IMG/VR virus record: IMGVR_UViG_2778261579_000007
Span: 1 to 13,940 of that record
From: a virus
Lineage: Duplodnaviria; Heunggongvirae; Uroviricota; Caudoviricetes
Length of the DNA stretch: 13,940 nt
Reading direction: 5' to 3' (one strand)
Positions 3,101-13,940 of the stretch are shown piece by piece. The translations under genes were made by a program, and so were the position numbers. The stretch's first letter is position 1; every line of letters begins with the position of its first letter. Below the pieces are notes generated by a model. It was given only the letters and a program-made list of their open reading frames with translations. It made no database searches and had not been told where the DNA came from.

Positions 3101-3313
3101 TCATGAAAGGTAAACATTGGCAGCTGAAGGGCCACGCAGACCATTTATCCGGCAAAATTCCACGCGTAATCCGGTGGTAATTTCTTCTGCATCGCGGAGA
3201 TTGAGCGCTGAAACATGAAGCTGGACATCGATACGACCATCGGATGGGGTGATAAGACCCTTGCCGCTTTTGCCGTCAAAGGTTTTGACAATTCCTGTCA
3301 TTTTACGGGACAA
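3101..3313 (-). CDS. cspF: Cold-shock protein CspF-like, 70 aa
   Basis: Translation [37 protein letters not shown]... is a CspA-family cold-shock domain; divergent from cspB as in Qin. Confidence 0.85.
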
Positions 3314-3613
3314 AAAAATTCCTTAATACTGATAACTTGGCGCACTATACACACGTTCCTGAAGAAAGCTATAGTTTTTTGATGGGGTTGAAGATGGCTG
3401 GATGTCTAAAATAAACATTGCTTCATATGTTCAACTATGCGTTAATGATTGCGTCGGTTTGAAGAACAGACGATATACGAAGTAGTTTACTAAAGCAGTT
3501 CTCATTTCAGGTGTTATTCACTTATTCCTTCTTTGAGTCTCTCCAATTAAGTACGAAGTCGTTTCTGTTATGCAAACCATTTATGCCGAAAGGCTCAAGT
3601 TAAGGAATGTAGA

Positions 3614-3829
3614 ATGTCAAATAAAATGACTGGTTTAGTAAAATGGTTTAACGCTGATAAAGGTTTCGGCTTTATTTCTCCTGTTGATGGTAGTAAAGAT
3701 GTGTTTGTGCATTTTTCTGCGATTCAGAATGATAATTATCGAACCTTATTTGAAGGTCAAAAGGTTACCTTCTCTATAGAGAGTGGTGCTAAAGGTCCTG
3801 CAGCAGCAAATGTCATCATTACTGATTAA
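3614..3829 (+). CDS. cspB: Cold-shock protein CspB-like, 71 aa
   Basis: [38 protein letters not shown]...: canonical CspA-family RNP motifs; about 300-nt upstream leader typical of cold-shock genes. Confidence 0.85.
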
Positions 3830-4110
3830 AATTCATCGCTCGTCTGTATACGATAACGAAGAAGGCTGATGCCTGAGTAGAGATACGGACAGAGTAGTGA
3901 ATATTGGATTTCTTTAATAAAATTTAAGGAGGTCCAATACATGAAACAATGGCCAGCATATTTGGCAAAATCTTAATCAGGAAAAGTATGCTAACCATTG
4001 TGGTGAAGTGCAGGTTTGCTGCATGAATAGTTTTACAGCAGAAGCTAACTGCTGGCATGGCAAAACAAAGTGCGTAAGTGGATGACTCCCACAAAAAGCA
4101 CCACAATCTC

Positions 4111-4363: not shown

Positions 4364-4582
4364 AGGCTTTTCCTGTATAAATGGCCGTATACAGTACACT
4401 AAATATGAAAACATTTCTCGTATTATTATTTTATATATGACTTTCTTTCAAAATAATTACTCACATTTTTAATGTGTATGTTTCTTTAGCGCCGTTGAGA
4501 ACAGCGTGTGCTGTCAAAACTACCCCGTAGACTCCGATCTTTTCAAACATATTGCACCATCCGTGTACATCGGGGTGAGGAT

Positions 4583-4798
4583 ATGAAATCAATGGATAAG
4601 TTAACAACAGGTGTTGCCTATGGCACATCGGCGGGTAATGCTGGTTTCTGGGCATTGCAGTTACTCGATAAAGTAACTCCGTCACAGTGGGCTGCAATCG
4701 GTGTGCTGGGTAGCCTGGTTTTTGGCCTGCTGACGTATCTGACAAATCTTTATTTCAAGATTAAAGAAGACAGGCGTAAGGCTGCGAGAGGAGAGTAA
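4583..4798 (+). CDS. essQ: Class II holin/pinholin (S21-like), 71 aa, dual-start MKSM
   Basis: [71 protein letters not shown] resembles the phage 21 S21 pinholin. RBS GGGGTGAGG upstream. Met1/Met4 dual start typical of holin/antiholin. Confidence 0.8.
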
Positions 4799-4802
4799 TC
4801 CA

Positions 4803-5110
4803 ATGACTCAAGACTATGAACTGGTTGTGAAAGGAGTCCGTAATTTTGAGAATAAAGTTACGGTAACTGTAGCCTTACAGGACAAAGAACGCTTTGACGG
4901 TGAAATTTTTGGCCTGGATGTCGCCATGGACCGTGTTGAAGGAGCTGCGCTGGAGTTTTATGAGGCAGCAGCCAGAATGAGCGTCCGGCAAGTCTTCCTG
5001 GAAGTAGCAGAAAAATTGTCAGAAAAAGTTGAGTCTTATCTGCAGCATCAGTACTCCTTTAAGATTGAAAATCCTGCCAATAAGCACGAGCGTCCTCATC
5101 ATAAATATCT

Positions 5111-5114
<4 letters not shown>
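4803..5114 (+). CDS. ydfR: Hypothetical lysis-cassette protein, 103 aa
   Basis: ATG 4803 four nt after holin stop with GGAGAG upstream; stop overlaps endolysin start (ATGA at 5111-5114). Size and position match YdfR of Qin from memory. Confidence 0.55.
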
Positions 5115-6138
<1,024 letters not shown>

Positions 6139-6501
6139 ATTAATATTAAATCGGATTATTTTTAGCGCTGAATGTGAAATTTAAATAAAAAGGACTCTTC
6201 CATGAGTCAAAATCCTTGAAATCTTAAGGGTAAGATAAAAGGTCATTAGACAGAATGACACGTTTTATTAATAAATAAAGCTATTGTTTCATTCGTGTGT
6301 TTTTCTTTACAAAAGTAATCCTTGCTATGGTTGGTTAATCATGCGTTAATGGTGTTCTGGTTTGTTACAAAATTATCTGAAGCAGTCATTGTTATAATTT
6401 TATTATTTGTACCTCTTGAGATTTCCTTGTTGGTTTTTCTCTCTGATATTTTTTTTCGGACCATTCTGCCCAAGGGCTAACTTCTTCAAAAGGTAATAAT
6501 G

Positions 6502-6714
6502 ATGTCTAACAAAATGACTGGTTTAGTGAAATGGTTTAACCCTGAAAAAGGTTTTGGTTTCATCACGCCGAAAGATGGTAGCAAAGATGTGTTTGTGCAT
6601 TTCTCAGCTATTCAGAGCAACGATTTCAAAACGTTAACTGAGAATCAGGAAGTCGAATTTGGTATTGAGAACGGACCTAAAGGCCCTGCAGCTGTTCATG
6701 TAGTGGCACTTTGA
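6502..6714 (+). CDS. cspI: Cold-shock protein CspI-like, 70 aa
   Basis: [45 protein letters not shown]...; second ATG of the ORF chosen to give the canonical CspA-family N-terminus; about 360-nt AT-rich leader upstream. Confidence 0.85.
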
Positions 6715-6918
6715 GGTAGAAAATATTACAAACCATATTCACTTTAGATGCCCGTGTTGCCATGGTTCTCAGTATAGAACATCATCTTTTGATGTTTCTG
6801 ACAGAAATCCTTTCGGGGCAAAATGTATCTTTTGTAAATCAATGATGATTACATTTGATAATATTTCACAATACTTAAATGTTAGCCATCTGTCGTTAGA
6901 TTTAAGAAAGTGAAAATG

Positions 6919-6941
6919 AAGGCTCCTTCGGGAGCTTTTTT
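6919..6941 (+). terminator. Rho-independent terminator
   Basis: AAGGCTCC-TTCG-GGAGCTTT then T-run; 8-bp stem with TTCG loop. Confidence 0.55.
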
Positions 6942-6985
6942 GCTTAGTGTCTAGTCGATGGATACTCACATATTACGGTAACATT

Positions 6986-7216
6986 ATGAAAAAAATAATA
7001 GTTTTTTTTAACTCTGAACCAGCAATGGTAGTGCCAGTGATGACCGGAGTTAACACCATCATGCGTGAATATCCAAATGGCGAAACAACACACCTCACTG
7101 TAATGGCTGCAGGGTTTCCATCTCTGACCGGAGATCATAAAGTCATTTATGTAGCAGCGGATCGACATGTAACTTCAGAAGAAATTCTGGAAGCAGCAAT
7201 GAGACTCTTGAATTGA
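6986..7216 (+). CDS. Hypothetical small protein, 76 aa, upstream of gnsB-like gene
   Basis: ATG 6986 (MKKIIVFF...), weak RBS. The ORF-track GTG at 6947 overlaps the terminator and is less likely. Occupies the position of ynfN in Qin. Confidence 0.35.
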   Translation: MKKIIVFFNSEPAMVVPVMTGVNTIMREYPNGETTHLTVMAAGFPSLTGDHKVIYVAADRHVTSEEILEAAMRLLN

Positions 7217-7388
7217 TTTGATTCTAATGCATTGATAATAAATGATAATCATCTTTATCTGTTTGTGTGAAATTTAGACCGTCGTATGTTGATTATTGCG
7301 ATGTTTCATCTTATCTTTTATACGTTTGCTCCATATAATTGACACTACTGTGTACCAGGACAGTCATAACAGACTAAAAGAGGAAATG

Positions 7389-7562
7389 ATGAACATTGAA
7401 GAGTTAAAAACAAAAACAGAAGCAGATATTTCTGAATATATAACAAAAAAAATCATTGAGCTTAAGAAAAAGACCGGGAAAGAAGTTACCAGTATCCAGT
7501 TTACTGCACGGGAAAAAATGACTGGTCTTGAAAGCTATGATATCAAGATTGATTTAATCTAG
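7389..7562 (+). CDS. gnsB: GnsA/GnsB-family protein, 57 aa
   Basis: MNIEELKTKTEADISEYITKKIIELKKKTGKEVTSIQFTAREKMTGLESYDIKIDLI; AAGAGG RBS at 7377-7382. Strong resemblance to the GnsA/GnsB family from memory. Perfect TATAAT at 7334-7339 upstream. Confidence 0.7.
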   Translation: MNIEELKTKTEADISEYITKKIIELKKKTGKEVTSIQFTAREKMTGLESYDIKIDLI

Positions 7563-7857
7563 CATGTTTATAGTATTAGCATCAATTTCTCATCAGATGC
7601 TATTCAACAATACAAATTACCCATAAACCTCGTTTTTACGGGGTTTTGTTATATTTAAACATTACCGAATAGATATAAATCTCGATTGTCGATGGTATTG
7701 GTTGTGTGACAATACCTAGTCTTTCCGGTATGCCTGAAGAGAATACAAACGACAGATTATGTAAGGGAAACGCGCTGAAACTTTCACTCTTTCATGCTGA
7801 GTGATTTGACGTTATATTTTTAGCCGCAAGTGAAGAGCAAACGAATGGAGCGACAAA

Positions 7858-8064
7858 ATGCATAAAGATCAATACACTGATGCCCCCTCCCAGGAGCAGG
7901 TTCGTGTAAAAACTATGCTTAATAGCACCATTTCGATGGGTTACCCGGATGTTGTAATTGCATGTATAGAACATCAAGTATCTCTGGAAGCATTCAGGGC
8001 AATTGAGGCCGCGTTAGTAAAGCACGATAAGAATACGAAGGATTATTCCCTGGTGGTTGACTGA
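7858..8064 (+). CDS. Hypothetical protein, 68 aa
   Basis: ATG 7858 with GGAG about 8 nt upstream; occupies the ydfO position of Qin but is shorter. No motif recognised. Confidence 0.35.
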
Positions 8065-8400
8065 TCACCATAACTGCTAACCATTCTGACCATTTCACAA
8101 GTGACAGAGTCAATATCGTATTCTGTCACTGTAAGGCTAATACAGTACTGCAATTCAACTACAGCAATGCCTCGTATTTAGGTGAATTTACAATATCGTC
8201 CAGTTCGGATGCCGGCTGCATTTCTGAAGATAAGGCATTTCGGTTCGCGTATTTTCCCCTCATGCTCGTCAGTCCTGCGCGTAGTAAGAAACAGGACACT
8301 CACACTAATTTGTGTGGGCATGCTGTGATGTCCTTCTGAATTATCCCCATGCCATTATGTAACGCTCTGTTTCAGATGCTCGTCACGGTTGTCAGGCTGT

Positions 8401-8485
8401 CGGGTCCTCCCAGTGGGGGTCCCTGCCACGGGGCGGGAGCGTCGCGGAAAAAGGCTAGTTTTTGAAATTTCATCCGTCATCACCA
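8401..8485. repeat. cos-like site copy 1 (cosQ-like GGGTCCTCCC, putative cosN 8431-8442 GGGCGGGAGCGT, start of cosB)
   Basis: Aligns to lambda cos junction recalled from memory (...ACGGGTCCTTTCCGGTGATCCGACAGGTTACG | GGGCGGCGACCT CGCGGG...). Nu1-like ATG lies 186 nt downstream of the putative cosN start; lambda has 190. Confidence 0.6.
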
Positions 8486-8616
8486 CTACTGTAATAGATT
8501 GATATTACAGTATTTTTATTTTTGCGGTGTCGATTTTGATTGTTTTTTGTTCATCACTAACACCGTTTGCCTAAAGTCGTTCGCAAGATGCATGTTTAAA
8601 ACATTCTGGAGCGGGT

Positions 8617-9111
8617 ATGGATCGAGAGTTAAAAAATCTGACGCTGAATATCAGTCAACTGGCGGCACTGTCAGGTGTACATCGCCAGACTGCTGCGGCA
8701 AGGCTGCAAAATCTACCCGTTGCAGGGGGGCATGAAAGCAACCTCAAGCTTTATCGGGTGGTTGATATTGTGTCGGCATTTCTGGCATTACCACCGCCGG
8801 TTGCAGAAGGCGAAATGGACGCGCATGAGCGCAAAGCCTGGTATCAGTCTGAACGTGAGCGTCTTAAGTTCGAACAGGAAACGGCGCAACTCATTCCGGC
8901 CAGTGATGTCAGACGGGAGTTTGCCATCTGGGCAAAAGCGGTCGTGCAGGTGCTGGAGACATTACCGGATATTCTGGAACGTGACTGCGGTCTGCAGCCT
9001 GCCGCTGTGAGCCGTGTTCAGTCCATTATTGATGATCTGCGCGATCAGATAGCCCTGCGGGTGACTGAAGCAGGTGCGGATGATGAGGAGGAATTACAGC
9101 AGGAGGAGTAA
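8617..9111 (+). CDS. Terminase small subunit, Nu1-like (copy A), 164 aa
   Basis: N-terminal HTH-like segment (LNISQLAALSGVHRQTAAARL) and overall pattern resemble lambda Nu1; GGAG RBS; positioned at the correct distance from cos; stop overlaps next ORF start (TAATG). Confidence 0.7.
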   Translation: MDRELKNLTLNISQLAALSGVHRQTAAARLQNLPVAGGHESNLKLYRVVDIVSAFLALPPPVAEGEMDAHERKAWYQSERERLKFEQETAQLIPASDVRREFAIWAKAVVQVLETLPDILERDCGLQPAAVSRVQSIIDDLRDQIALRVTEAGADDEEELQQEE

Positions 9112-9308
9112 TGCTGAATCAGGAAACCGCAAAGGCAGCACGAACCGATTCAGGTTATATCCTTCGCGCACCGAGACGAATGCGGGTTGCTGATGCCGTT
9201 GCTCAGTATATGCGGGTGCCCATGGGGGCAGGGAACTCAGTCCCGTGGGATCCGCTGGTGGCACCGTATGTTATTGAGCCTATGAACTGCCTGGCCTCGC
9301 GTGAATAG
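9111..9308 (+). CDS. Short ORF coupled to terS copy A, 65 aa (possible terminase-large-subunit remnant)
   Basis: ATG overlaps terS stop in the normal terS-terL coupling arrangement, but the ORF is only 65 codons; weak resemblance of PWDPLVAPYVIEPMN to the lambda gpA N-terminal region. Confidence 0.3.
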   Translation: MLNQETAKAARTDSGYILRAPRRMRVADAVAQYMRVPMGAGNSVPWDPLVAPYVIEPMNCLASRE

Positions 9309-9343
9309 ACAACCATCAACATTAAGTCCGGAGAGCAGACAGC

Positions 9344-9766
9344 ATGACAGCACAGATAGCAGCTTACGGGCGGCTGGCAAATGACCCGCAGTTAAAGACC
9401 ACCAGCAAGGGTACACAAATGGCAATGGCGAGTATGGCGGTCCCGCTGCCATGCAGCCAGGCAGATGACGGAACGGCGACGATGTGGTTATCCGTCTTGG
9501 CATTTGGCAGGCAGGCCGAAGCGCTGGCAAAGCACCGCAAGGGGGAACTCCTGAGCGTGGCTGGTAACATGCAGGTGAACCAGTGGACAGGCCAGAACGG
9601 CGAAATACGGCAGGGCTGGCAGGTTATCGCAGACAGTGTAATCAGTGCCAGAACGGCGCGACCAGGTGGTAAAAAAGGCCAACTGGGGCAGGCCACTGAC
9701 GCACTGAACAGGGCAAAACAACAGGCGGGAAATGATGATCCGTACGGGGATGAAATACCGTTTTAA
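9344..9766 (+). CDS. Single-stranded DNA-binding protein (SSB)-like, 140 aa, with C-terminal DEIPF tail
   Basis: OB-fold pattern alignable by eye to E. coli SSB (IAAYGRLANDPQLK.. vs ILVGNLGQDPEVRY..; WLSVLAFGRQAEALAKHRKGELLSVAGNMQVNQWTGQNG vs [40 protein letters not shown]) and acidic tail ending IPF. GGAGAG RBS. Confidence 0.7.
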   Translation: MTAQIAAYGRLANDPQLKTTSKGTQMAMASMAVPLPCSQADDGTATMWLSVLAFGRQAEALAKHRKGELLSVAGNMQVNQWTGQNGEIRQGWQVIADSVISARTARPGGKKGQLGQATDALNRAKQQAGNDDPYGDEIPF

Positions 9767-9781
9767 GCAACGAGTAACAGA

Positions 9782-9805
9782 AGCCGGAGCAATCCGGCTT
9801 TTTTA
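9782..9805 (+). terminator. Rho-independent terminator immediately 5' of cos copy 2
   Basis: AGCCGGA-GCAA-TCCGGCT followed by TTTTT. Confidence 0.6.
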
Positions 9806-9880
9806 TGGGTCCTCCCGGTGTAGTGACCTGCCACGGGGCGGGAGCGTCGCGGAAAAAGGCTGGTTTTTGCATTTTCATGG
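9806..9880. repeat. cos-like site copy 2 (cosQ-cosN, putative cosN 9836-9847 GGGCGGGAGCGT), orphan: no cosB/terS follows
   Basis: Near-identical to copies 1 and 3 over about 70 bp, then diverges into AT-rich sequence unrelated to the cosB/terS leader of the other copies. Confidence 0.6.
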
Positions 9881-10064
9881 CGGCGGCAGCATGTGTGATA
9901 ATTTATTGATAATTAAAAATTATTTCTGTTTTCACCTGTACAATATTTTTTTCTCCCTGTCATTAGACCAGTTTGCAATTAATTGAAATATATAAATAAA
10001 TTGGTTTTTCACCTGCCAGATGGAGTTGCCTGTGCAAAACGTGTTCAGATGGCGGGATATTTAT

Positions 10065-10087
10065 GCCGGATTCTCTCCGGCTTTTTT
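10065..10087 (+). terminator. Rho-independent terminator
   Basis: GCCGGA-TTCTC-TCCGGC followed by TTTTTT; same stem sequence as the 9782 terminator. Confidence 0.5.
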
Positions 10088-10189
10088 GTGTCTGAATCTG
10101 ATTAATCTATTTTTATGATAGAAATATGTTTATCTACCACTTTTATCGATCAATAATGCGCGCAGTTTAGTCAGTAAGAGGAAGTTACT

Positions 10190-10399
10190 GTGAATTGTAT
10201 TAACGACCTGAACACAGGCGAGGTAAAAGGTGGTTCCGTTCATCTGGATGCGCAGACCGTTATGCGCCTTAAGCAGTACAGGATCGACCACATAAATCAT
10301 CATCCTGACCAACCATTACCAGGTGCGGCGCAGATTGTCAGACACGCAGTTAACGCGTGGCTTGATAAGAATGGTTTTGCATCTGGGGGTGAGCAATGA
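10190..10399 (+). CDS. Hypothetical small protein, 69 aa, coupled to protease/capsid gene
   Basis: GTG 10190 with strong AAGAGGAAG RBS; in-frame stop 5 codons upstream so it is not a fragment of a longer frame; stop overlaps downstream ATG (ATGA). Confidence 0.45.
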   Translation: MNCINDLNTGEVKGGSVHLDAQTVMRLKQYRIDHINHHPDQPLPGAAQIVRHAVNAWLDKNGFASGGEQ

Positions 10400-12309
10400 A
10401 TCACTGGTACACCATTAAGGCGCTGGGTGTTCGCGGAGCGGCAGAAATATCCATCTATGAAGAAATTGGCGGCTTCGGTATTACCGCGAAGAAGTTTGCG
10501 GAAGACCTGAAAGCCCTGGGCGATGTCTCACATATCGACCTGCGGATCCATTCGCCAGGTGGTGACGTGTTTGAAGGCATCGCCATCTATAACCTGTTAC
10601 GGAATCATCCGGCAGAAATTACGGTTTATATCGATGGTGTTGCGGCTTCAATGGCTTCGGTTGTCGCAATGGCTGGCGATCGTGTTGTGATGCCGGAAAA
10701 CGCCATGATGATGATACATAAGCCGTGGGGTATCTCTGGCGGAAATGCTGGTGATATGCGTGATTATGCTGATTTGCTGGATAAGGTGGAAACCGTGTTA
10801 GTCCCTGCTTATGCCAGAAAAACGGGCAAATCAGCACAGGAAATTACCGCCATGCTGGAAGATGAAACCTGGATGGACGGGAAAGAATGCCTTAAGCACG
10901 GTTTTGCTGATGAATTGTTGCCATCTGTCACAGCAATGGCGCGAATTGAATCGAAACGCACAGGAGATTTTTCACACATGCCGGAAACCATTAAAGGAAT
11001 GATTATCCCGCCACAGGGAGCAGCCAATATTGCTGGTAATGAACAGAAGCGCATCAACGGAATAAGTGAAGTGTTTAGCCTGTTCGGCAGTCGTTACGAC
11101 GGGATCAAAATGGCGTGCCTGGAGGATGCATCATGTACACCGGAGATGGCCCGTGAAAAGTTGTTGAACGAGCTGGGGCGCGAGTCCACGCCATCCAATA
11201 AAAATATCCCGACTCATATTTATGCCGGTAACGGGAACATAACAGGCGATGCAATTCGTCAGGGGCTTTATTCTCGTCTCGGGTATGAACGCCCAGAGCG
11301 GGGAAATCCTTATGCGATGATGAGCCTTTTTGAAATGGCCCAGGCATCACTAACTGATCGTGGTATCAGTGTTGGCAGTTTTTTAAATCGCTCGCAGGTC
11401 GTTAATGCAGCTTTCACACACAGCAGCAGCGATTTTTCTCATATTCTGGCTGGTGGTGCTGAAAAGTCAGTGCTGAAAGGCTGGCAGGACAGCGGCGAAA
11501 CGTTCCAGAAATGGACGCGTACCGGATCGCTTTCAAACTTTCATGAAGCAAAGCGCGTTGGTCTGAATGGTTTTTCAAAGCTGGATAAAGTACCGGAAGG
11601 TGCGGAATATAAATACATCACCACCAGCGATAAAGGTGTACCTATTGCGCTGGCCACATACGGTAATATTTTTTCTGTTACCCGTCAGGCCATTATCAAC
11701 GATGACCTGACCCAGTTAACTACAATCCCCATGGCGATGGGGCGTGCGGCCGCCAGAACAGTAGGTAATCTGGTTTATCTTCTGTTAACCAGCAACGGCA
11801 AATTTACGGATGGTAAAGCGTTATTCCATGCCGATCATAAAAATCTTATTGCGAAGGATATGGACATGGAGGGGCTTAACGAAGCCCGTAAGCTGATGCG
11901 ATTACAGGAGGATGCCAACGGCGACTCCCTGAATATTACCCCCGCTTTTGTTCTGGTCCCTGCTGCGCTGGAGTCTGCCGCACATCGCGCCATTCTGTCA
12001 TCGTCATCACTCTTTCCGATTGATGGTGGAGGCACTATCAATCAGAACCCCGGCATCATTAACGCGGTGAAAGATATGGCAGAGGTTATCGTCGAGCCGC
12101 GTCTTGATAAAGCCAATAACAAGGAGTGGTATGTGGCAGCGGCGAAGGGGATGGACACGATAGAGGTCGCTTATCTTGATGGTATTGATACGCCATATCT
12201 TGAGGAGCAGGAGGGATTTACTGTTGATGGCGTCGCCTGGAAGGTGCGCATAGATGCAGGTGTCGCGGCCCTCGACTATCGCGGATTACTGAAATCGAGT
12301 GGAGCATGA
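10396..12309 (+). CDS. Prohead protease (ClpP/S14-like) fused to HK97-fold major capsid protein, 637 aa
   Basis: N-terminal ClpP-like motifs (HSPGGDV, GVAASMASVVAMAGD with candidate catalytic Ser, MMIHKPW with candidate His); C-terminal about 350 aa resemble capsid proteins of Gifsy-type lambdoid phages as I recall them. Confidence 0.75.
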   Translation: MNHWYTIKALGVRGAAEISIYEEIGGFGITAKKFAEDLKALGDVSHIDLRIHSPGGDVFEGIAIYNLLRNHPAEITVYIDGVAASMASVVAMAGDRVVMPENAMMMIHKPWGISGGNAGDMRDYADLLDKVETVLVPAYARKTGKSAQEITAMLEDETWMDGKECLKHGFADELLPSVTAMARIESKRTGDFSHMPETIKGMIIPPQGAANIAGNEQKRINGISEVFSLFGSRYDGIKMACLEDASCTPEMAREKLLNELGRESTPSNKNIPTHIYAGNGNITGDAIRQGLYSRLGYERPERGNPYAMMSLFEMAQASLTDRGISVGSFLNRSQVVNAAFTHSSSDFSHILAGGAEKSVLKGWQDSGETFQKWTRTGSLSNFHEAKRVGLNGFSKLDKVPEGAEYKYITTSDKGVPIALATYGNIFSVTRQAIINDDLTQLTTIPMAMGRAAARTVGNLVYLLLTSNGKFTDGKALFHADHKNLIAKDMDMEGLNEARKLMRLQEDANGDSLNITPAFVLVPAALESAAHRAILSSSSLFPIDGGGTINQNPGIINAVKDMAEVIVEPRLDKANNKEWYVAAAKGMDTIEVAYLDGIDTPYLEEQEGFTVDGVAWKVRIDAGVAALDYRGLLKSSGA

Positions 12310-12315
12310 CAACAA

Positions 12316-12339
12316 GGGCGGCGATAGCCGCCTTTTTTT
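12316..12339 (+). terminator. Rho-independent terminator immediately 5' of cos copy 3
   Basis: GGGCGGC-GATA-GCCGCC followed by TTTTTTT. Confidence 0.6.
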
Positions 12340-12340
12340 A

Positions 12341-12427
12341 CGGGTCCTCCCGGTGTAGTGACCTGCCACGGGGCGGGAGCGGCGCGGAAAAAGGCTAGTT
12401 TTTGCATTTTTATTCGTCATCATCATC
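12341..12427. repeat. cos-like site copy 3 (cosQ-cosN-cosB, putative cosN 12371-12382 GGGCGGGAGCGG)
   Basis: Same element as copies 1 and 2; Nu1-like ATG 196 nt downstream of putative cosN; leader 12534-12566 nearly identical to 8584-8616. Confidence 0.6.
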
Positions 12428-12566
12428 TTTCTATTATATTGAATTTTAAGTGTTTTTATTTTTGGTATGTTAATTTTGCTTATTTTGTGTTCAACATGCA
12501 GCGCGTTTTTTGACCTTTTTTAAAAGATATTTGCAAGATGCATTTTTAAAACATTCTGGAGCGGGT

Positions 12567-13052
12567 ATGGATCGGGAACTGAAAAATCTGATGCTGAACA
12601 TTAACCAGCTGGCGGCGATAGCGGGAATATGTCGCCAGACTGCGGCGGCAAGGCTGAAAAATATCCAGCCAGCCGGAGGACATGACAAGCTGAAACTCTA
12701 TCGGGTGACTGACATTCTGACCTGTTTTCTTGATCTTCCCGTTCCGGCATCACTGGAAGAAATGGAGCCACACGACCGTAAGGCCTGGTATCAGTCCGAA
12801 CGTGAGCGCCTCAAGTTCGAACAGGAAACGGCGCAACTCATACCCGCCGATGATGTGCGAAAAGAGATGGCTATATGGGGAGAAATCGTAAGCGAGGAAC
12901 TGGAAAAACTCCCCAGTATTCTGGCACGTGATGTTGGGCTTAAACCGATGGCAGTAAACAGAGTGCAGTCAATTATTGACGATTTGTGTAATCAGATTAT
13001 CAGCCGGATGGTAAAAAATGACGTAGTGAATGAGGTCGCAAAACAGGCATGA
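12567..13052 (+). CDS. Terminase small subunit, Nu1-like (copy C), 161 aa
   Basis: Start MDRELKNL is homologous to the copy A start and has the same GGAGCGGGT-ATG RBS context; the ORF track extends to ATG 12510, but that region is not coding in copy A. About 65-70% aa identity to copy A by eye. Confidence 0.7.
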   Translation: MDRELKNLMLNINQLAAIAGICRQTAAARLKNIQPAGGHDKLKLYRVTDILTCFLDLPVPASLEEMEPHDRKAWYQSERERLKFEQETAQLIPADDVRKEMAIWGEIVSEELEKLPSILARDVGLKPMAVNRVQSIIDDLCNQIISRMVKNDVVNEVAKQA

Positions 13053-13336
13053 TAATGACCGAATCTGAAATACTGCGATTAATCCGCTGTGCTGGTGGAA
13101 TTAGCCAGTTGGCTGACGAACAGGCCGCGCAGCCGGATACAGTCACCGCTGAAAATTACGCGCGTGTGGTGGCTGAGGTGATGCGCCGTGACGGTATTGA
13201 GCTTAACGGCGTGGATATGCGCAACATACGAACCAGAGTCCTTGAGTTGCTGGCATACCGTCGCCGTTCTCAACAACGGAGGGAGAGCGCGAAAAATACT
13301 TATCAGTGGAAGAAGCCGGAATGGTTGCGGCGGTAA
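13049..13336 (+). CDS. Probable truncated terminase large subunit (N-terminal 95 codons only)
   Basis: ATGA overlap with terS stop; N-terminus TESEILRLIRCAGGISQL resembles lambda gpA N-terminus (SQVNRLRHFVRAGLRSL) from memory; the ORF stops after 95 codons and downstream frames are full of stops. Confidence 0.4.
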   Translation: MIMTESEILRLIRCAGGISQLADEQAAQPDTVTAENYARVVAEVMRRDGIELNGVDMRNIRTRVLELLAYRRRSQQRRESAKNTYQWKKPEWLRR

Positions 13337-13710
13337 TTTGTTGATATTCCTGATAGCGCAAAAGTGCGTTGGCTGGTGGGTGAGTTGCAGATCTGCAACT
13401 CGACCATGAAATTACGGAAACTACCCGTAGTTTGGGTAGTAAGAGTAACACCCAGATTTTGGGGCTTACTTGCGATACCCAAATAAAGGGTATCGGTGGA
13501 AGAAATATCGTTTCTCATATGTGAGTTCCGAGAGCGGAATTCCGCCTCTGATTTGTCATTGTGATCATGCATAGCGGCAATAATTAATATTGCTTCCTTT
13601 TTTGCTTTTTTATCGCTTAAGCAGGTACTAAATCTGGGACTATGTTGTAGGGGGCATAACTCAATAGTACCTTATAATCATTTAGTTACCTTTTATTTAC
13701 TTCTTCCTGG

Positions 13711-13940
13711 ATGGAGGGTCCGGCAGCTGCTTATCAGACACTCTCGCAACTCGTTTACAAACTGCTTACTGCAGAACAGGAATACGAGACAACCGGAAGT
13801 GAAGAGACACTCAAGACGGTTATCAATACCGACTGGGGATTACCTTATCTTCCCCGCGCCAGCATGGAGCAACGAAAAAGTGAATTGCTTGAGCAGCGGG
13901 CAGAGCCAGTTCCTTCCCGCAGTGTGCCGGATGGCGTTAA
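13711..13940 (+). CDS. Hypothetical protein, 5' part only (ORF runs off window end)
   Basis: ATG 13711 opens a frame with no stop to the end of the window (76 codons); TATAAT at 13673-13678 upstream; no clear RBS. Function unknown. Confidence 0.3.
   Translation, partial: MEGPAAAYQTLSQLVYKLLTAEQEYETTGSEETLKTVINTDWGLPYLPRASMEQRKSELLEQRAEPVPSRSVPDGV

What the first reader, a model, noticed from the sequence alone, without database searches (positions are those of the whole stretch)
8584..13052. Two divergent Nu1-like terS paralogs with conserved leader and a near-identical internal DNA patch
terS copy A (8617-9111) and copy C (12567-13052) are only about 65-70% identical at protein level. Their immediate upstream leaders (8584-8616 vs 12534-12566) are nearly identical, and an internal stretch (about 8836-8900 vs 12783-12847, encoding KAWYQSERERLKFEQETAQLIP) is about 90% identical at DNA level. 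This patchwork suggests recombination between two distinct phage lineages or gene conversion rather than simple duplication. The C-termini differ completely (acidic DDEEELQQEE vs KNDVVNEVAKQA); that is the region that in lambda Nu1 contacts terminase large subunit, so the two may have different partner specificity.
Basis: seen in the sequence. Interest (0 to 1): 0.5.

Follow-up and report, generated by a model that had tools for sequence, protein, structure and literature searches.

The report
Helper prophage and satellite terS pair
The two small-terminase genes are not duplicates: one belongs to an E. coli lambda-like prophage and the other to a phage satellite (PICI) inserted in that prophage's large-terminase gene, and their patchy similarity reflects a conserved protein motif that doubles as a recombination joint between phages and satellites.

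Summary
In detail: 64.6% protein identity, a 32/33 identical leader, a 60/65 identical internal patch, and unrelated C-terminal tails. The interpretation needs re-framing. Copy A (8617-9111) is the terS of a Qin/mEp460-like lambdoid prophage. Copy C (12567-13052) is the terS of a PICI satellite integrated in the prophage's terL, with the attR core at 13707-13719. In this window a 6.8-kb deletion (junction 9308-9310) removed the rest of terL's 5' part and the satellite's integrase-to-primase region, so the composite is a relic.

The patch encodes the near-invariant DUF1441 signature DRKAWYQSERERLKFEQE. Across about 60 distinct alleles, the 3' half falls into two discrete classes. The phage class is followed by terL; the satellite class is followed by orf95. 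The 5' cassette (cosB, leader, winged-helix domain) is swapped between phages and satellites in both directions, with breakpoints inside the patch.

The likely function of copy C, which is inferred and not shown, is a satellite small terminase that redirects helper TerL to the satellite cos site. Helper-embedded PICIs and PICI terS genes are already known, so this is a new member of a known kind. Its evolutionary detail is neat but modest.

The parts
8394..8473 (+). cos1: cosQ/cosN-like site of the prophage. The mature left end is predicted at 8431 (GGGCGGGAGCGT).
   Evidence: Three-copy repeat family D1. Register taken from cos2, whose position 9836 equals nt 1 of the phage cdtI and Tritos records.
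8474..8579 (+). Prophage cosB-position spacer, allele A1. It is T-rich and 59% identical to the satellite's.
8580..8624 (+). Conserved leader with GGAG ribosome-binding site and the first codons. Contains a 30-nt exact match to 12545-12574.
   Evidence: The leader is allele-specific: 78% identical in A2-type phages and 100% identical to A in most satellites.
8617..9111 (+). terS copy A: the prophage small terminase (DUF1441 / PHROG 141) with the phage-class C-terminal half and an acidic tail.
   Evidence: Followed by terL in all phage-class loci.
8830..8900 (+). Patch in copy A, encoding the family signature RKAWYQSERERLKFEQETAQLIPA. It acts as a recombination joint.
9111..9308 (+). Truncated 5' end of prophage terL (65 codons), closed by a stop codon created at the deletion junction.
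   Evidence: 100% identical to the start of intact terL in L002. PHROG 15, terminase large subunit.
9308..9310 (.). Deletion junction with 3-nt microhomology. About 6.8 kb present in strain IMT16316 is missing here: the rest of terL's 5' part, attL, and the satellite's int, Bro, Icd, DUF4222 and primase genes.
   Evidence: window 4557-9310 = L001 3462-8217; window 9308-13940 = L001 15001-19633. The junction is absent from 5,426 complete E. coli genomes and from all fetched loci.
9344..9766 (+). Satellite SSB gene (replication zone).
   Evidence: Pfam SSB, E 3.5e-15. Same position in the intact satellites L168 and L169.
9799..10038 (+). cos2: a second satellite cos site with a cdtI-type cosB and only the first ~8 codons of a cdtI-type terS.
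   Evidence: 95% identical to cos3 over 80 nt. Positions 9836-10038 are 92-93% identical to nt 1-204 of phages cdtI and Tritos.
10190..10399 (+). Small satellite ORF (69 aa, PHROG 4934, function unknown) overlapping the start of the capsid gene.
10396..12309 (+). Satellite ClpP-protease/major-capsid fusion gene, 56% identical to the helper prophage's own fusion protein.
12334..12413 (+). cos3: the satellite cos site next to terS copy C. The mature left end is predicted at 12371.
12414..12566 (+). Satellite cosB-position spacer (allele C) and leader.
12567..13052 (+). terS copy C: the satellite (PICI) small-terminase homologue with the satellite-class C-terminal half and a non-acidic tail. Predicted winged helix-turn-helix at residues 9-56, signature helix at 68-87, and C-terminal helices at 94-160.
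   Evidence: Always followed by orf95 in the loci examined.
12777..12847 (+). Patch in copy C.
13049..13336 (+). orf95: the last gene of the satellite backbone, function unknown (PHROG 1561).
   Evidence: Homologues at 83% identity are the last gene of capsid-forming PICIs, directly after terL.
13707..13719 (+). attR core CTGGATGGAGGGT. The attL counterpart in IMT16316 is CTGGATGTAGGGT. The attB site is terL nt 987-999.
   Evidence: The same attR junction occurs in 82 of 5,426 complete E. coli genomes.
13702..13940 (+). 3' part of the prophage terL (GpA nuclease domain). It resumes at the att core and runs off the end of the window.
   Evidence: Pfam GpA_nuclease, E 4.4e-16. 100% identical to L002 terL nt 987-1220.

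Best explanation
SHOWN. Copy A is the small-terminase gene of a lambdoid (Qin/mEp460-like) E. coli prophage. Copy C is the small-terminase homologue of a PICI-type phage satellite that integrates, through its own tyrosine integrase, into codons 329-333 of that prophage's GpA-type terL. The satellite's gene order is int, AlpA-like HTH, Bro, Icd, DUF4222, primase, SSB, cos, ClpP/capsid fusion, cos, terS, orf95. In this window the composite has lost 6.8 kb and is defective.

The patchy similarity has two causes:
- The patch encodes the near-invariant DUF1441 signature helix, so selection on the protein keeps it alike.
- cosN, the leader and the patch hold the only long exact matches between the units, and they act as homology arms. 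Between cosN and the patch lies a 'specificity cassette' of cosB, leader and winged-helix DNA-binding domain. This cassette is swapped between phages and satellites in both directions.

The 3' half never crosses between element types: there is a phage class followed by terL and a satellite class followed by orf95.

INFERRED. After helper induction the satellite TerS binds the satellite cosB at cos3 through its winged-helix domain. It then recruits the helper's TerL to cut cosN and package satellite DNA, as SaPI TerS does. The private C-terminal module is what distinguishes satellite TerS from helper TerS. It might give altered or competitive TerL binding, prevent mixing with helper TerS, or give immunity to a satellite-encoded inhibitor of helper TerS. 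Cassette swapping would let satellites and helpers track or escape each other's cos specificity.
For: Context:
- Window 9308-13940 is 100% identical to the satellite in IMT16316, which splits terL.
- Intact embedded copies occur in strains 20 and EC21GDE043.
- The att core was found by comparison with an uninterrupted terL.
- The same attR junction is present in 82 of 5,426 genomes.
- The same satellite back half sits at the chromosomal cspD/clpS site and near the allantoin genes, with other integrases.
- The gene set matches the published PICI core and the helper-embedded PICI layout (PMC10085698; PMC10111431).

Mosaic:
- The segment identity table shows two discrete 3' classes (at least 89% identity within a class, about 62% between) and at least 4 alleles of the 5' part that cross classes.
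- L038 breaks at 8835-8850, with 89 of 89 informative sites A-type afterwards. L036 breaks at 8865-8895. No permutation of 2,000 reached the observed chi-square.
- P0007/L173 carries cosB 92%, leader 100% and N-terminal half 100% nucleotide-identical to copy A, with a 3' half 99% identical to copy C, inside a complete PICI.
- The signature motif is near-invariant in 60 proteins from many genera.
- Exact-match runs are confined to cosN, the leader and the patch.

Function:
- PHROG 141, terminase small subunit.
- AlphaFold model with pLDDT 81.7 showing an N-terminal winged HTH, which weakly matches MerR-type domains and the lambda TerS DNA-binding domain 6hn7_B (probability 0.90).
- The satellite has cos sites with the same cosN as the helper and no terL of its own.
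Against: - No experiment or interaction prediction links the satellite C-terminal half to TerL.
- Its tail lacks the acidic character shared by phage-class tails in all genera.
- It has lost family-wide residues K106 and R141.
- Its pN/pS is 0.46, against 0.02-0.05 for phage-class C-terminal halves (the sets were biased by selection on protein identity). This could mean relaxed function.
- Some satellites carry a cassette identical to a phage's (L173), so DNA-level discrimination cannot be the whole story.
- cosB and N-terminal alleles are not perfectly linked (L034 and L035).
- In the window itself neither unit can work. The terL gene is irreparably broken, and the satellite lacks its integrase and primase.
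Confidence: 0.6

Rival explanations
1. Rpp-like decoy. The satellite TerS homologue does not bind TerL itself. It co-assembles with helper TerS through the shared winged-helix domain and the invariant central helix. The mixed complex recognises the satellite cosB, uses the helper TerS C-terminus to bring in TerL, and so blocks phage packaging.
For: - Precedent: Rpp mimics the TerS DNA-binding domain and forms a heterocomplex with TerS, while the TerS C-terminus stays free for TerL (PMC6739421; PMC9026076).
- The central helix is identical in copies A and C.
- The satellite C-terminal half has lost the acidic tail and two family-conserved residues, and is less constrained.
- The satellite has two cos sites, as EcCICFT073 does.
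Against: - Unlike Rpp, the protein keeps the full TerS length and most conserved C-terminal residues: L112, E113, L115, P116, I118, L119, R121, D122, Q134 and D138.
- No hetero-oligomer evidence was obtained.
- Whether the patch helix is an oligomerisation surface is unknown. The model is a monomer with pTM 0.41.
Confidence: 0.2
2. The high-identity islands reflect purifying selection only (protein motif, ribosome-binding site, cosN). Recombination plays no special role at the patch.
For: - The motif is near-invariant across genera.
- In the A/C pair, synonymous codon identity inside the patch is not significantly higher than outside (P = 0.096).
Against: - Reciprocal chimeras exist with breakpoints inside the patch, flanked by tracts 97-100% identical to one parent or the other.
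- In phage cdtI a largely conserved motif gives only 64% nucleotide identity to copy A, so protein constraint alone does not yield 90%.
- The leader is non-coding and differs at about 9 of 40 positions in A2-type phages, so it is not universally constrained.
Confidence: 0.08
3. Local duplication of a cos-terS unit inside one prophage, or recent gene conversion between the two co-resident copies, produced the patchwork.
For: - The two units are co-oriented and 3.95 kb apart in this window.
- Direct repeats of this kind can recombine.
Against: - Copy C lies inside an integrase-bounded satellite that also occurs at chromosomal sites with no prophage around it.
- The four co-resident pairs show the same segment identities as unrelated pairs: cosB 59-63%, N-terminal half 67-70%, patch 89-90%, C-terminal half 61-63%.
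Confidence: 0.03
4. The satellite terS is a decaying captured late gene with no role in packaging. The satellite relies on its cos sites and on helper TerS alone.
For: - pN/pS of the satellite C-terminal half is 0.46.
- cos2 shows that the satellite can carry a phage-type cos without a cognate terS.
- Published PICI capsid genes are dispensable for transfer (PMC10111431 introduction).
Against: - The gene is intact and full length in all satellite alleles examined, and is found in 192 of 5,426 genomes.
- Its N-terminal half shows pN/pS 0.11.
- Family-invariant residues are kept.
- The cassette is renewed by exchange together with its cosB.
Confidence: 0.09

Closest known systems
Helper-embedded PICIs (HE-PICI; Tommasini, Mageeney & Williams 2023, PMC10111431)
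   Same: [quoted passage not shown] It has the zones int/AlpA, Bro, replication (primase, SSB) and late (captured capsid and packaging genes). The interrupted late gene is restorable only by satellite excision.
   Different: - The target is a GpA-type terL at nt 987-999. The gene-A sites I could find in their text and supplement are all in Terminase_1-family terL genes.
- Their doubled TGTATTGC attP motif is absent near this att site.
- Their model element 11capE lacks terS, whereas this one carries a full terS homologue.
- The copy in this window is deleted and defective.
PICI/SaPI-encoded small terminase (SaPI TerS; 'terS' core component of PICIs in de Sousa et al. 2023, PMC10085698)
   Same: The satellite carries a homologue of the helper's TerS next to its own packaging site and has no TerL. 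The presumed role is to redirect helper TerL to satellite DNA.
   Different: This is a cos system, not a pac system. The shared and private domains are also arranged differently: the DNA-recognition cassette is shared and exchanged with phages, while the C-terminal half, expected to be the TerL-facing part, is satellite-private. No Ppi-like partner has been identified.
Rpp of EcCICFT073-type E. coli PICIs (Fillol-Salom et al. 2019, PMC6739421)
   Same: An E. coli cos PICI with lambda-like cosQ/cosN, a cosB that differs from the resident helper's, two cos sites, and a satellite protein with a TerS-like winged-helix domain.
   Different: Copy C is a full-length DUF1441 TerS homologue. It is not the 144-153-residue Rpp fold (winged helix plus coiled-coil dimeriser). 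No Rpp gene was seen in this satellite.
TerS of phages mEp460, cdtI, Tritos, Ayreon and phi458 (DUF1441 / PHROG 141)
   Same: Same protein family and same position directly downstream of cos and upstream of a GpA-type terL. The cdtI and Tritos records begin at the GGGCGGGAGCGT end that is also found in all three cos copies here.
   Different: Copy A is 75-79% identical at DNA level to these sequenced phages. Copy C has a C-terminal half not found in any sequenced phage record.
Lambda Nu1 (gpNu1)
   Same: Same position, and same role as annotated by PHROG and by some source names. It also has an N-terminal MerR-like winged HTH followed by helical C-terminal regions, and lambda-like cosN flanks.
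   Different: No detectable sequence similarity to lambda TerS chains in the PDB. Pfam family DUF1441 rather than Phage_Nu1. The fold match is weak (E 0.2).

Membership tests
PICI (phage-inducible chromosomal island), as defined by de Sousa et al. 2023 | Integrase at one end | tested here: met
   Tyrosine integrase next to attL in the intact copies L168 and L169. It is deleted in the window itself.
PICI (phage-inducible chromosomal island), as defined by de Sousa et al. 2023 | AlpA/MerR/Stl-type regulator and a primase-replicase module | tested here: met
   A 67-aa HTH regulator follows int, and a DNA primase family protein is present. Pfam Phage_AlpA and D5_N/DUF5906 are found in the related PICI L172. 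All are absent from the window because of the deletion.
PICI (phage-inducible chromosomal island), as defined by de Sousa et al. 2023 | Capsid-morphogenesis gene and small terminase, but no tail, lysis or terL genes | tested here: met
   ClpP/capsid fusion at 10396-12309 and DUF1441 terS at 12567-13052. No terL, portal or tail genes lie between attL and attR.
PICI (phage-inducible chromosomal island), as defined by de Sousa et al. 2023 | Induction, excision and high-frequency transfer by a helper phage | not testable with these tools
   Needs induction and transduction experiments.
Helper-embedded PICI (Tommasini et al. 2023) | [quoted passage not shown] | tested here: met
   terL is split at CTGGATG(G/T)AGGGT, and attB is intact in NZ_CP048107. 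All satellite core genes are on the late-operon strand. The attR junction is present in 82 genomes.
Helper-embedded PICI (Tommasini et al. 2023) | Doubled TGTATTGC motif flanking the attP centre (signature of their integrase clade) | tested here: not met
   No TGTATTGC or its complement lies within the att-flanking DNA of the window or of L001. The configuration is the same, but membership of that integrase clade is doubtful. No integrase phylogeny was done.
Small terminase subunit of cos phages (Nu1-like) | Gene immediately downstream of cos and upstream of terL | tested here: met
   Met for copy A. Copy C meets the cos part only, because orf95 follows it instead of terL.
Small terminase subunit of cos phages (Nu1-like) | N-terminal winged helix-turn-helix DNA-binding domain of the Nu1/MerR type | tested here: inconclusive
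Small terminase subunit of cos phages (Nu1-like) | C-terminal region binds the N-terminus of TerL; cosB binding by the N-terminal domain | not testable with these tools
   Only indirect support is available. The 3' class tracks the presence of terL. The tail and the extreme TerL N-terminus both differ between winA-type phages and cdtI (two lineages only).
Rpp (redirecting phage packaging) proteins | A protein of about 145-153 residues with a TerS-like DNA-binding domain and a C-terminal coiled-coil dimeriser; it binds helper TerS | tested here: not met
   Copy C is a full-length DUF1441 homologue, alignable end to end with phage TerS. No PDB sequence hit to RppC entries at E of 10 or less. Binding to helper TerS was not testable.

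The most novel reading that the evidence does not exclude
In this PICI family the small terminase may be split into two modules. One is a freely exchangeable 'address' module (cosB plus winged helix) that satellites and helper phages trade through the invariant signature helix. The other is a satellite-private 'identity' module, the C-terminal half without the acidic tail. The identity module, rather than DNA recognition, would be what lets the satellite win the packaging contest. It could do so by poisoning or out-competing helper TerS at TerL, or by escaping a satellite-encoded inhibitor that targets the phage-class C-terminus. That is the reverse of the SaPI arrangement as I recall it (not checked here), in which the DNA-binding part is private and the TerL-binding part is shared.
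Probability: 0.2. Interest if true: 0.6.

Novelty: new member of a known kind. Interest (0 to 1): 0.35.

Why it matters
It explains an odd-looking pair of 'paralogues' as a helper-satellite composite. That matters for annotation, because both genes are currently labelled only 'DUF1441 family protein' and the split terL halves are called pseudogenes. It gives a concrete, testable picture of how cos-type satellites and their helpers exchange packaging specificity, through a cassette bounded by cosN and a 24-residue invariant motif. It points to a satellite-specific TerS C-terminal module whose partner is unknown. It also adds a recurrent terL integration site (82 of 5,426 complete E. coli genomes) that I could not find among the published helper-embedded PICI sites.

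Tried and rejected
- PDB sequence searches with TerS-A and orf95 gave only chance-level hits.
- The AlphaFold model of orf95 was too poor (pLDDT 59.6) to search with.
- The species-representative genome scan found no satellite-class terS. The first scan, with the C-terminal half alone, confirmed nothing. The second, with the full protein, found 5 phage-class loci.
- The promoter and terminator scan found no sigma-70-like promoter on the + strand ahead of either terS.
- Rfam found only two cspA thermoregulators elsewhere in the window, and no tRNA genes were found.
- I considered orf95 as a specific partner of the satellite C-terminal half, because the two always co-occur. I then down-weighted this, because orf95 homologues also end capsid-forming PICIs that have an unrelated Terminase_4 TerS and their own TerL.
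- I considered P0007-type chimeras as products of deletion between the two direct repeats in a composite. I rejected this because P0007 sits in complete PICIs at another chromosomal site.
- I considered a nucleotide-level functional element in the patch. I rejected this because the patch in cdtI is only 64% identical.
- The Tommasini supplement holds no GpA-type terL site, no DUF1441 and no IMT16316 accession.
Full report
**1. The observation.** Both ORFs exist as described: 8617-9111 (164 aa), and 12567-13052 (161 aa, inside the mechanically listed ORF 12510-13052).
- Both match Pfam DUF1441 (E 2.7e-41 and 2.2e-35) and PHROG 141 'terminase small subunit'.
- Global protein identity is 104/161 (64.6%), and nucleotide identity over aligned codons is 67%.
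- The leader 8584-8616 vs 12534-12566 is 32/33 identical.
It lies within a run of 24 identical residues, RKAWYQSERERLKFEQETAQLIPA.
- Such a clean 65-nt window never arose in 20,000 permutations of mismatch positions. With whole codon columns shuffled, P = 0.00015.
- The tails are unrelated.
- Exact matches of 14 nt or more between the two units occur only in cosN (20 and 22 nt), the leader (30 nt) and the patch (14 and 29 nt).

One caveat applies. Within this pair, codon identity at identical degenerate residues is 16/23 in the patch and 37/77 elsewhere (Fisher P = 0.096). The pair alone therefore does not prove recombination.

**2. What the two copies are.** The window is the late region of an E. 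coli lambdoid prophage of the Qin type. It carries holin, ydfR, lysozyme, Rz and cold-shock genes.

Window 4557-9310 matches strain IMT16316 at 99%. Window 9308-13940 matches the same genome at 100%, but 6.8 kb further on.

In IMT16316, and intact in strains 20 and EC21GDE043, the order is:
- terS, then the first 993 nt of terL;
- then tyrosine integrase, small HTH regulator, Bro-N, Icd-like, DUF4222, primase and SSB;
- then a cos site, a small ORF, the ClpP/capsid fusion and a second cos site;
- then DUF1441 terS and a 93-95-aa ORF;
- then the rest of terL, portal, the prophage's own ClpP/capsid fusion and the tail genes.

Comparison with an uninterrupted terL (NZ_CP048107) places the insertion at terL nt 987-999. 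The shared core is CTGGATG(G/T)AGGGT, and attR lies at window 13707-13719.

The inserted element has the five core components of a PICI as defined by de Sousa et al. 2023 (PMC10085698). It also has the helper-embedded, co-oriented configuration described by Tommasini et al. 2023 (PMC10111431). The same attR junction is present in 82 of 5,426 complete E. coli genomes. About 1,400 genomes have the uninterrupted site.

The satellite's back half, from Icd to orf95, also occurs with other integrases at two chromosomal sites:
- the cspD/clpS site;
- near the allantoin genes, once as a tandem.

So copy A is the helper prophage's terS and copy C is the satellite's terS. They are homologues brought together by integration, not paralogues made by duplication.

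**3. State of the window.** Relative to the intact composites, the window lacks terL nt 199-986, attL, and the satellite's int-to-primase region. The junction at 9308-9310 has 3-nt microhomology and creates the stop codon that closes a 65-codon terL stub.

No complete E. coli genome and no fetched locus has this junction. The composite here is therefore a decayed relic. terL cannot be restored, and the satellite can neither excise nor replicate.

**4. Why the similarity is patchy.** I collected 160 loci from IMG/VR with each protein and reduced them to 64 distinct gene sequences.

The segment identities show a sharp pattern:

| Segment | Pattern across alleles |
|---|---|
| 3' half (8901-9108) | Two discrete classes. 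The phage class is always followed by terL: at least 89% identical to copy A, about 62% to copy C. The satellite class is always followed by orf95: at least 95% identical to copy C, about 62% to copy A. No intermediates. |
| cosB, leader and N-terminal half | At least four alleles, and these cross the two classes. |
| Patch | 89-100% identical in every comparison. |

The chimeras are explicit:
- L038/P0010, a prophage allele followed by terL, has a C-type cosB (86%) and N-terminal half (97%). It switches at 8835-8850 to 89 of 89 A-type informative sites.
- L036, a satellite allele, switches at about 8740 and again at 8865-8895.
- No permutation of 2,000 reached the observed chi-square for either.
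- P0007 is the reciprocal chimera. In L173, a complete PICI, cosB is 92%, the leader 100% and the N-terminal half 100% nucleotide-identical to copy A. The 3' half is 99% identical to copy C.

Four co-resident helper-satellite pairs are no more alike than unrelated pairs. There is therefore no sign of local gene conversion.

At protein level DRKAWYQSERERLKFEQE is near-invariant in 60 family members from Escherichia, Salmonella, Providencia, Proteus, Serratia, Hafnia, Enterobacter and others. In phage cdtI the motif is largely kept, yet the DNA there is only 64% identical to copy A. So protein constraint alone does not give 90% DNA identity, and there is no universal nucleotide element in the patch.

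My reading has three parts:
- Selection keeps the motif invariant.
- The resulting exact-match runs, together with those in cosN and the leader, serve as homology arms.
- Repeated crossing-over there keeps the DNA homogenised, and moves the cosB/leader/winged-helix cassette between phages and satellites.

The leader is part of this cassette and is not a universally constrained signal. It is 100% A-type in most satellites but only 78% identical in A2-type phages.

**5. Protein anatomy.** An AlphaFold model of TerS-C was built on the 60-sequence alignment and has mean pLDDT 81.7. It shows:
- a strand-helix-helix-wing-helix domain at residues 9-56;
- a helix at residues 68-87, with the following loop, that together make up the patch;
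- three further helices up to residue 160.

The satellite class differs from the phage class in these ways:
- It has remodelled the otherwise conserved stretch AKAVVQVLETLPDILERDC to GEIVSEELEKLPSILARDV.
- It has lost the family-wide residues K106 and R141.
- It has replaced the acidic tail shared by phage-class proteins of all genera.
- Its pN/pS within the class is 0.46, against 0.02-0.05 for phage-class C-terminal halves. The sequence sets were biased by selection on protein identity.

**6. How it most likely works.** The following points are shown:
- The satellite has lambda-like cosN sites identical in their core to the helper's.
- It has no terL.
- It carries diverged homologues of two helper late genes, terS (65% identical) and the protease/capsid fusion (56% identical).

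The mechanism below is inferred from the lambda, SaPI and PICI literature (PMC6739421, PMC9026076, PMC10085698):
- On helper induction the satellite excises and restores terL.
- TerS-C binds cosB at cos3 through its winged-helix domain and recruits helper TerL to package satellite DNA.
- The satellite-private C-terminal half is the feature that separates satellite TerS from helper TerS.

Whether that half gives competitive TerL binding, prevents or promotes co-assembly with helper TerS (an Rpp-like mode), or gives immunity to a satellite inhibitor cannot be decided here.

The only indirect support is twofold. The 3' class tracks the presence of terL. And the TerS tail and the extreme TerL N-terminus both differ between the winA-type phages and cdtI (two lineages only).

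**7. Comparison with what is known, and novelty.** Helper-embedded PICIs, PICI-encoded terS and two-cos PICIs are all published. This element differs from the published helper-embedded set in three ways:
- Its target is a GpA-type terL. All gene-A sites I could find in that paper and its supplement are in Terminase_1 genes.
- It lacks their doubled TGTATTGC attP motif.
- It carries a full terS, which their model element lacks.

Compared with SaPI TerS as I recall it (not checked here), the polarity is reversed: the DNA-recognition part is shared and the C-terminal part is private.

I found no paper describing the DUF1441 satellite TerS or the cassette exchange. DUF1441 appears in only three unrelated phage-genome papers in the library. 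I rate the finding as a new member of a known kind, with an evolutionary detail worth a short note but no categorical novelty.

Noticed in passing
window 9308-9310: A 6.8-kb deletion with 3-nt microhomology joins codon 65 of terL to the DNA just upstream of the satellite SSB gene. The junction is absent from 5,426 complete E. coli genomes and from all fetched IMG/VR loci, so it is private to the source of this window or possibly an assembly artefact.
   Followed up: partly
window 9799-10081: A second satellite cos site (cos2) has a cosB 92-93% identical to the left end (nt 1-204) of phages cdtI and Tritos. It carries only the first ~8 codons of a cdtI-type terS, followed by a terminator-like hairpin at 10065-10081. 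The satellite thus has two co-oriented cos sites with different cosB alleles flanking its capsid gene, which recalls cos1 and cos2 of EcCICFT073. It may widen the helper range.
   Followed up: partly
window 13707-13719; L002 6198-6210: The GpA-type terL codons 329-333 (core CTGGATGGAGGGT) are a recurrent satellite attachment site, occupied in 82 of 5,426 complete E. coli genomes. I could not find it among the published helper-embedded PICI sites, and it lacks their TGTATTGC attP motif.
   Followed up: partly
window 13049-13336; L163-L166 8001-8294: orf95 (PHROG 1561, no Pfam match) is the last gene before attR in this PICI. At 83% identity it is also the last gene of capsid-forming PICIs, directly after their own terL. 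It has a very basic C-terminus and 875 clusters in the protein database. Its function is unknown, and the AlphaFold model was poor (pLDDT 59.6).
   Followed up: partly
L168, L169 (terL); L170, L171 (cspD/clpS); L172, L173 (near allantoin genes): The same satellite back half (Icd, DUF4222, primase, SSB, cos, capsid, cos, terS, orf95) is combined with at least three different integrase and att modules. L172 holds two such PICIs in tandem.
   Followed up: partly
satellite-class terS alleles (L003-L037), codons 96-161: pN/pS of the satellite C-terminal half is 0.46, against 0.11 for its N-terminal half and 0.02-0.05 for phage-class C-terminal halves. This suggests relaxed or diversifying selection. 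The samples were biased by selection on protein identity.
   Followed up: partly
L042 3001-4380; protein P0005: Two odd alleles were seen. One is a 1,380-nt ORF that starts as a phage-class terS and reads on into other sequence. The other is a 234-aa protein annotated as ClpP-related protease that carries both CLP_protease and DUF1441 domains. They may be deletion fusions or frameshifts in decaying composites.
   Followed up: no
window 3453-3845 and 6344-6760: Two full-length cspA thermoregulator RNA elements (Rfam RF01766, 158.8 and 110.1 bits) lie ahead of prophage-borne cold-shock genes. A third csp-like gene lies on the minus strand at 3101-3313.
   Followed up: no
window 10396-12309 vs L001 22178-24202: The satellite's ClpP-protease/major-capsid fusion is a full-length, 56%-identical homologue of the helper's own fusion protein. 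It raises the question of whether the satellite builds its own or mixed capsids while lacking a portal gene.
   Followed up: partly
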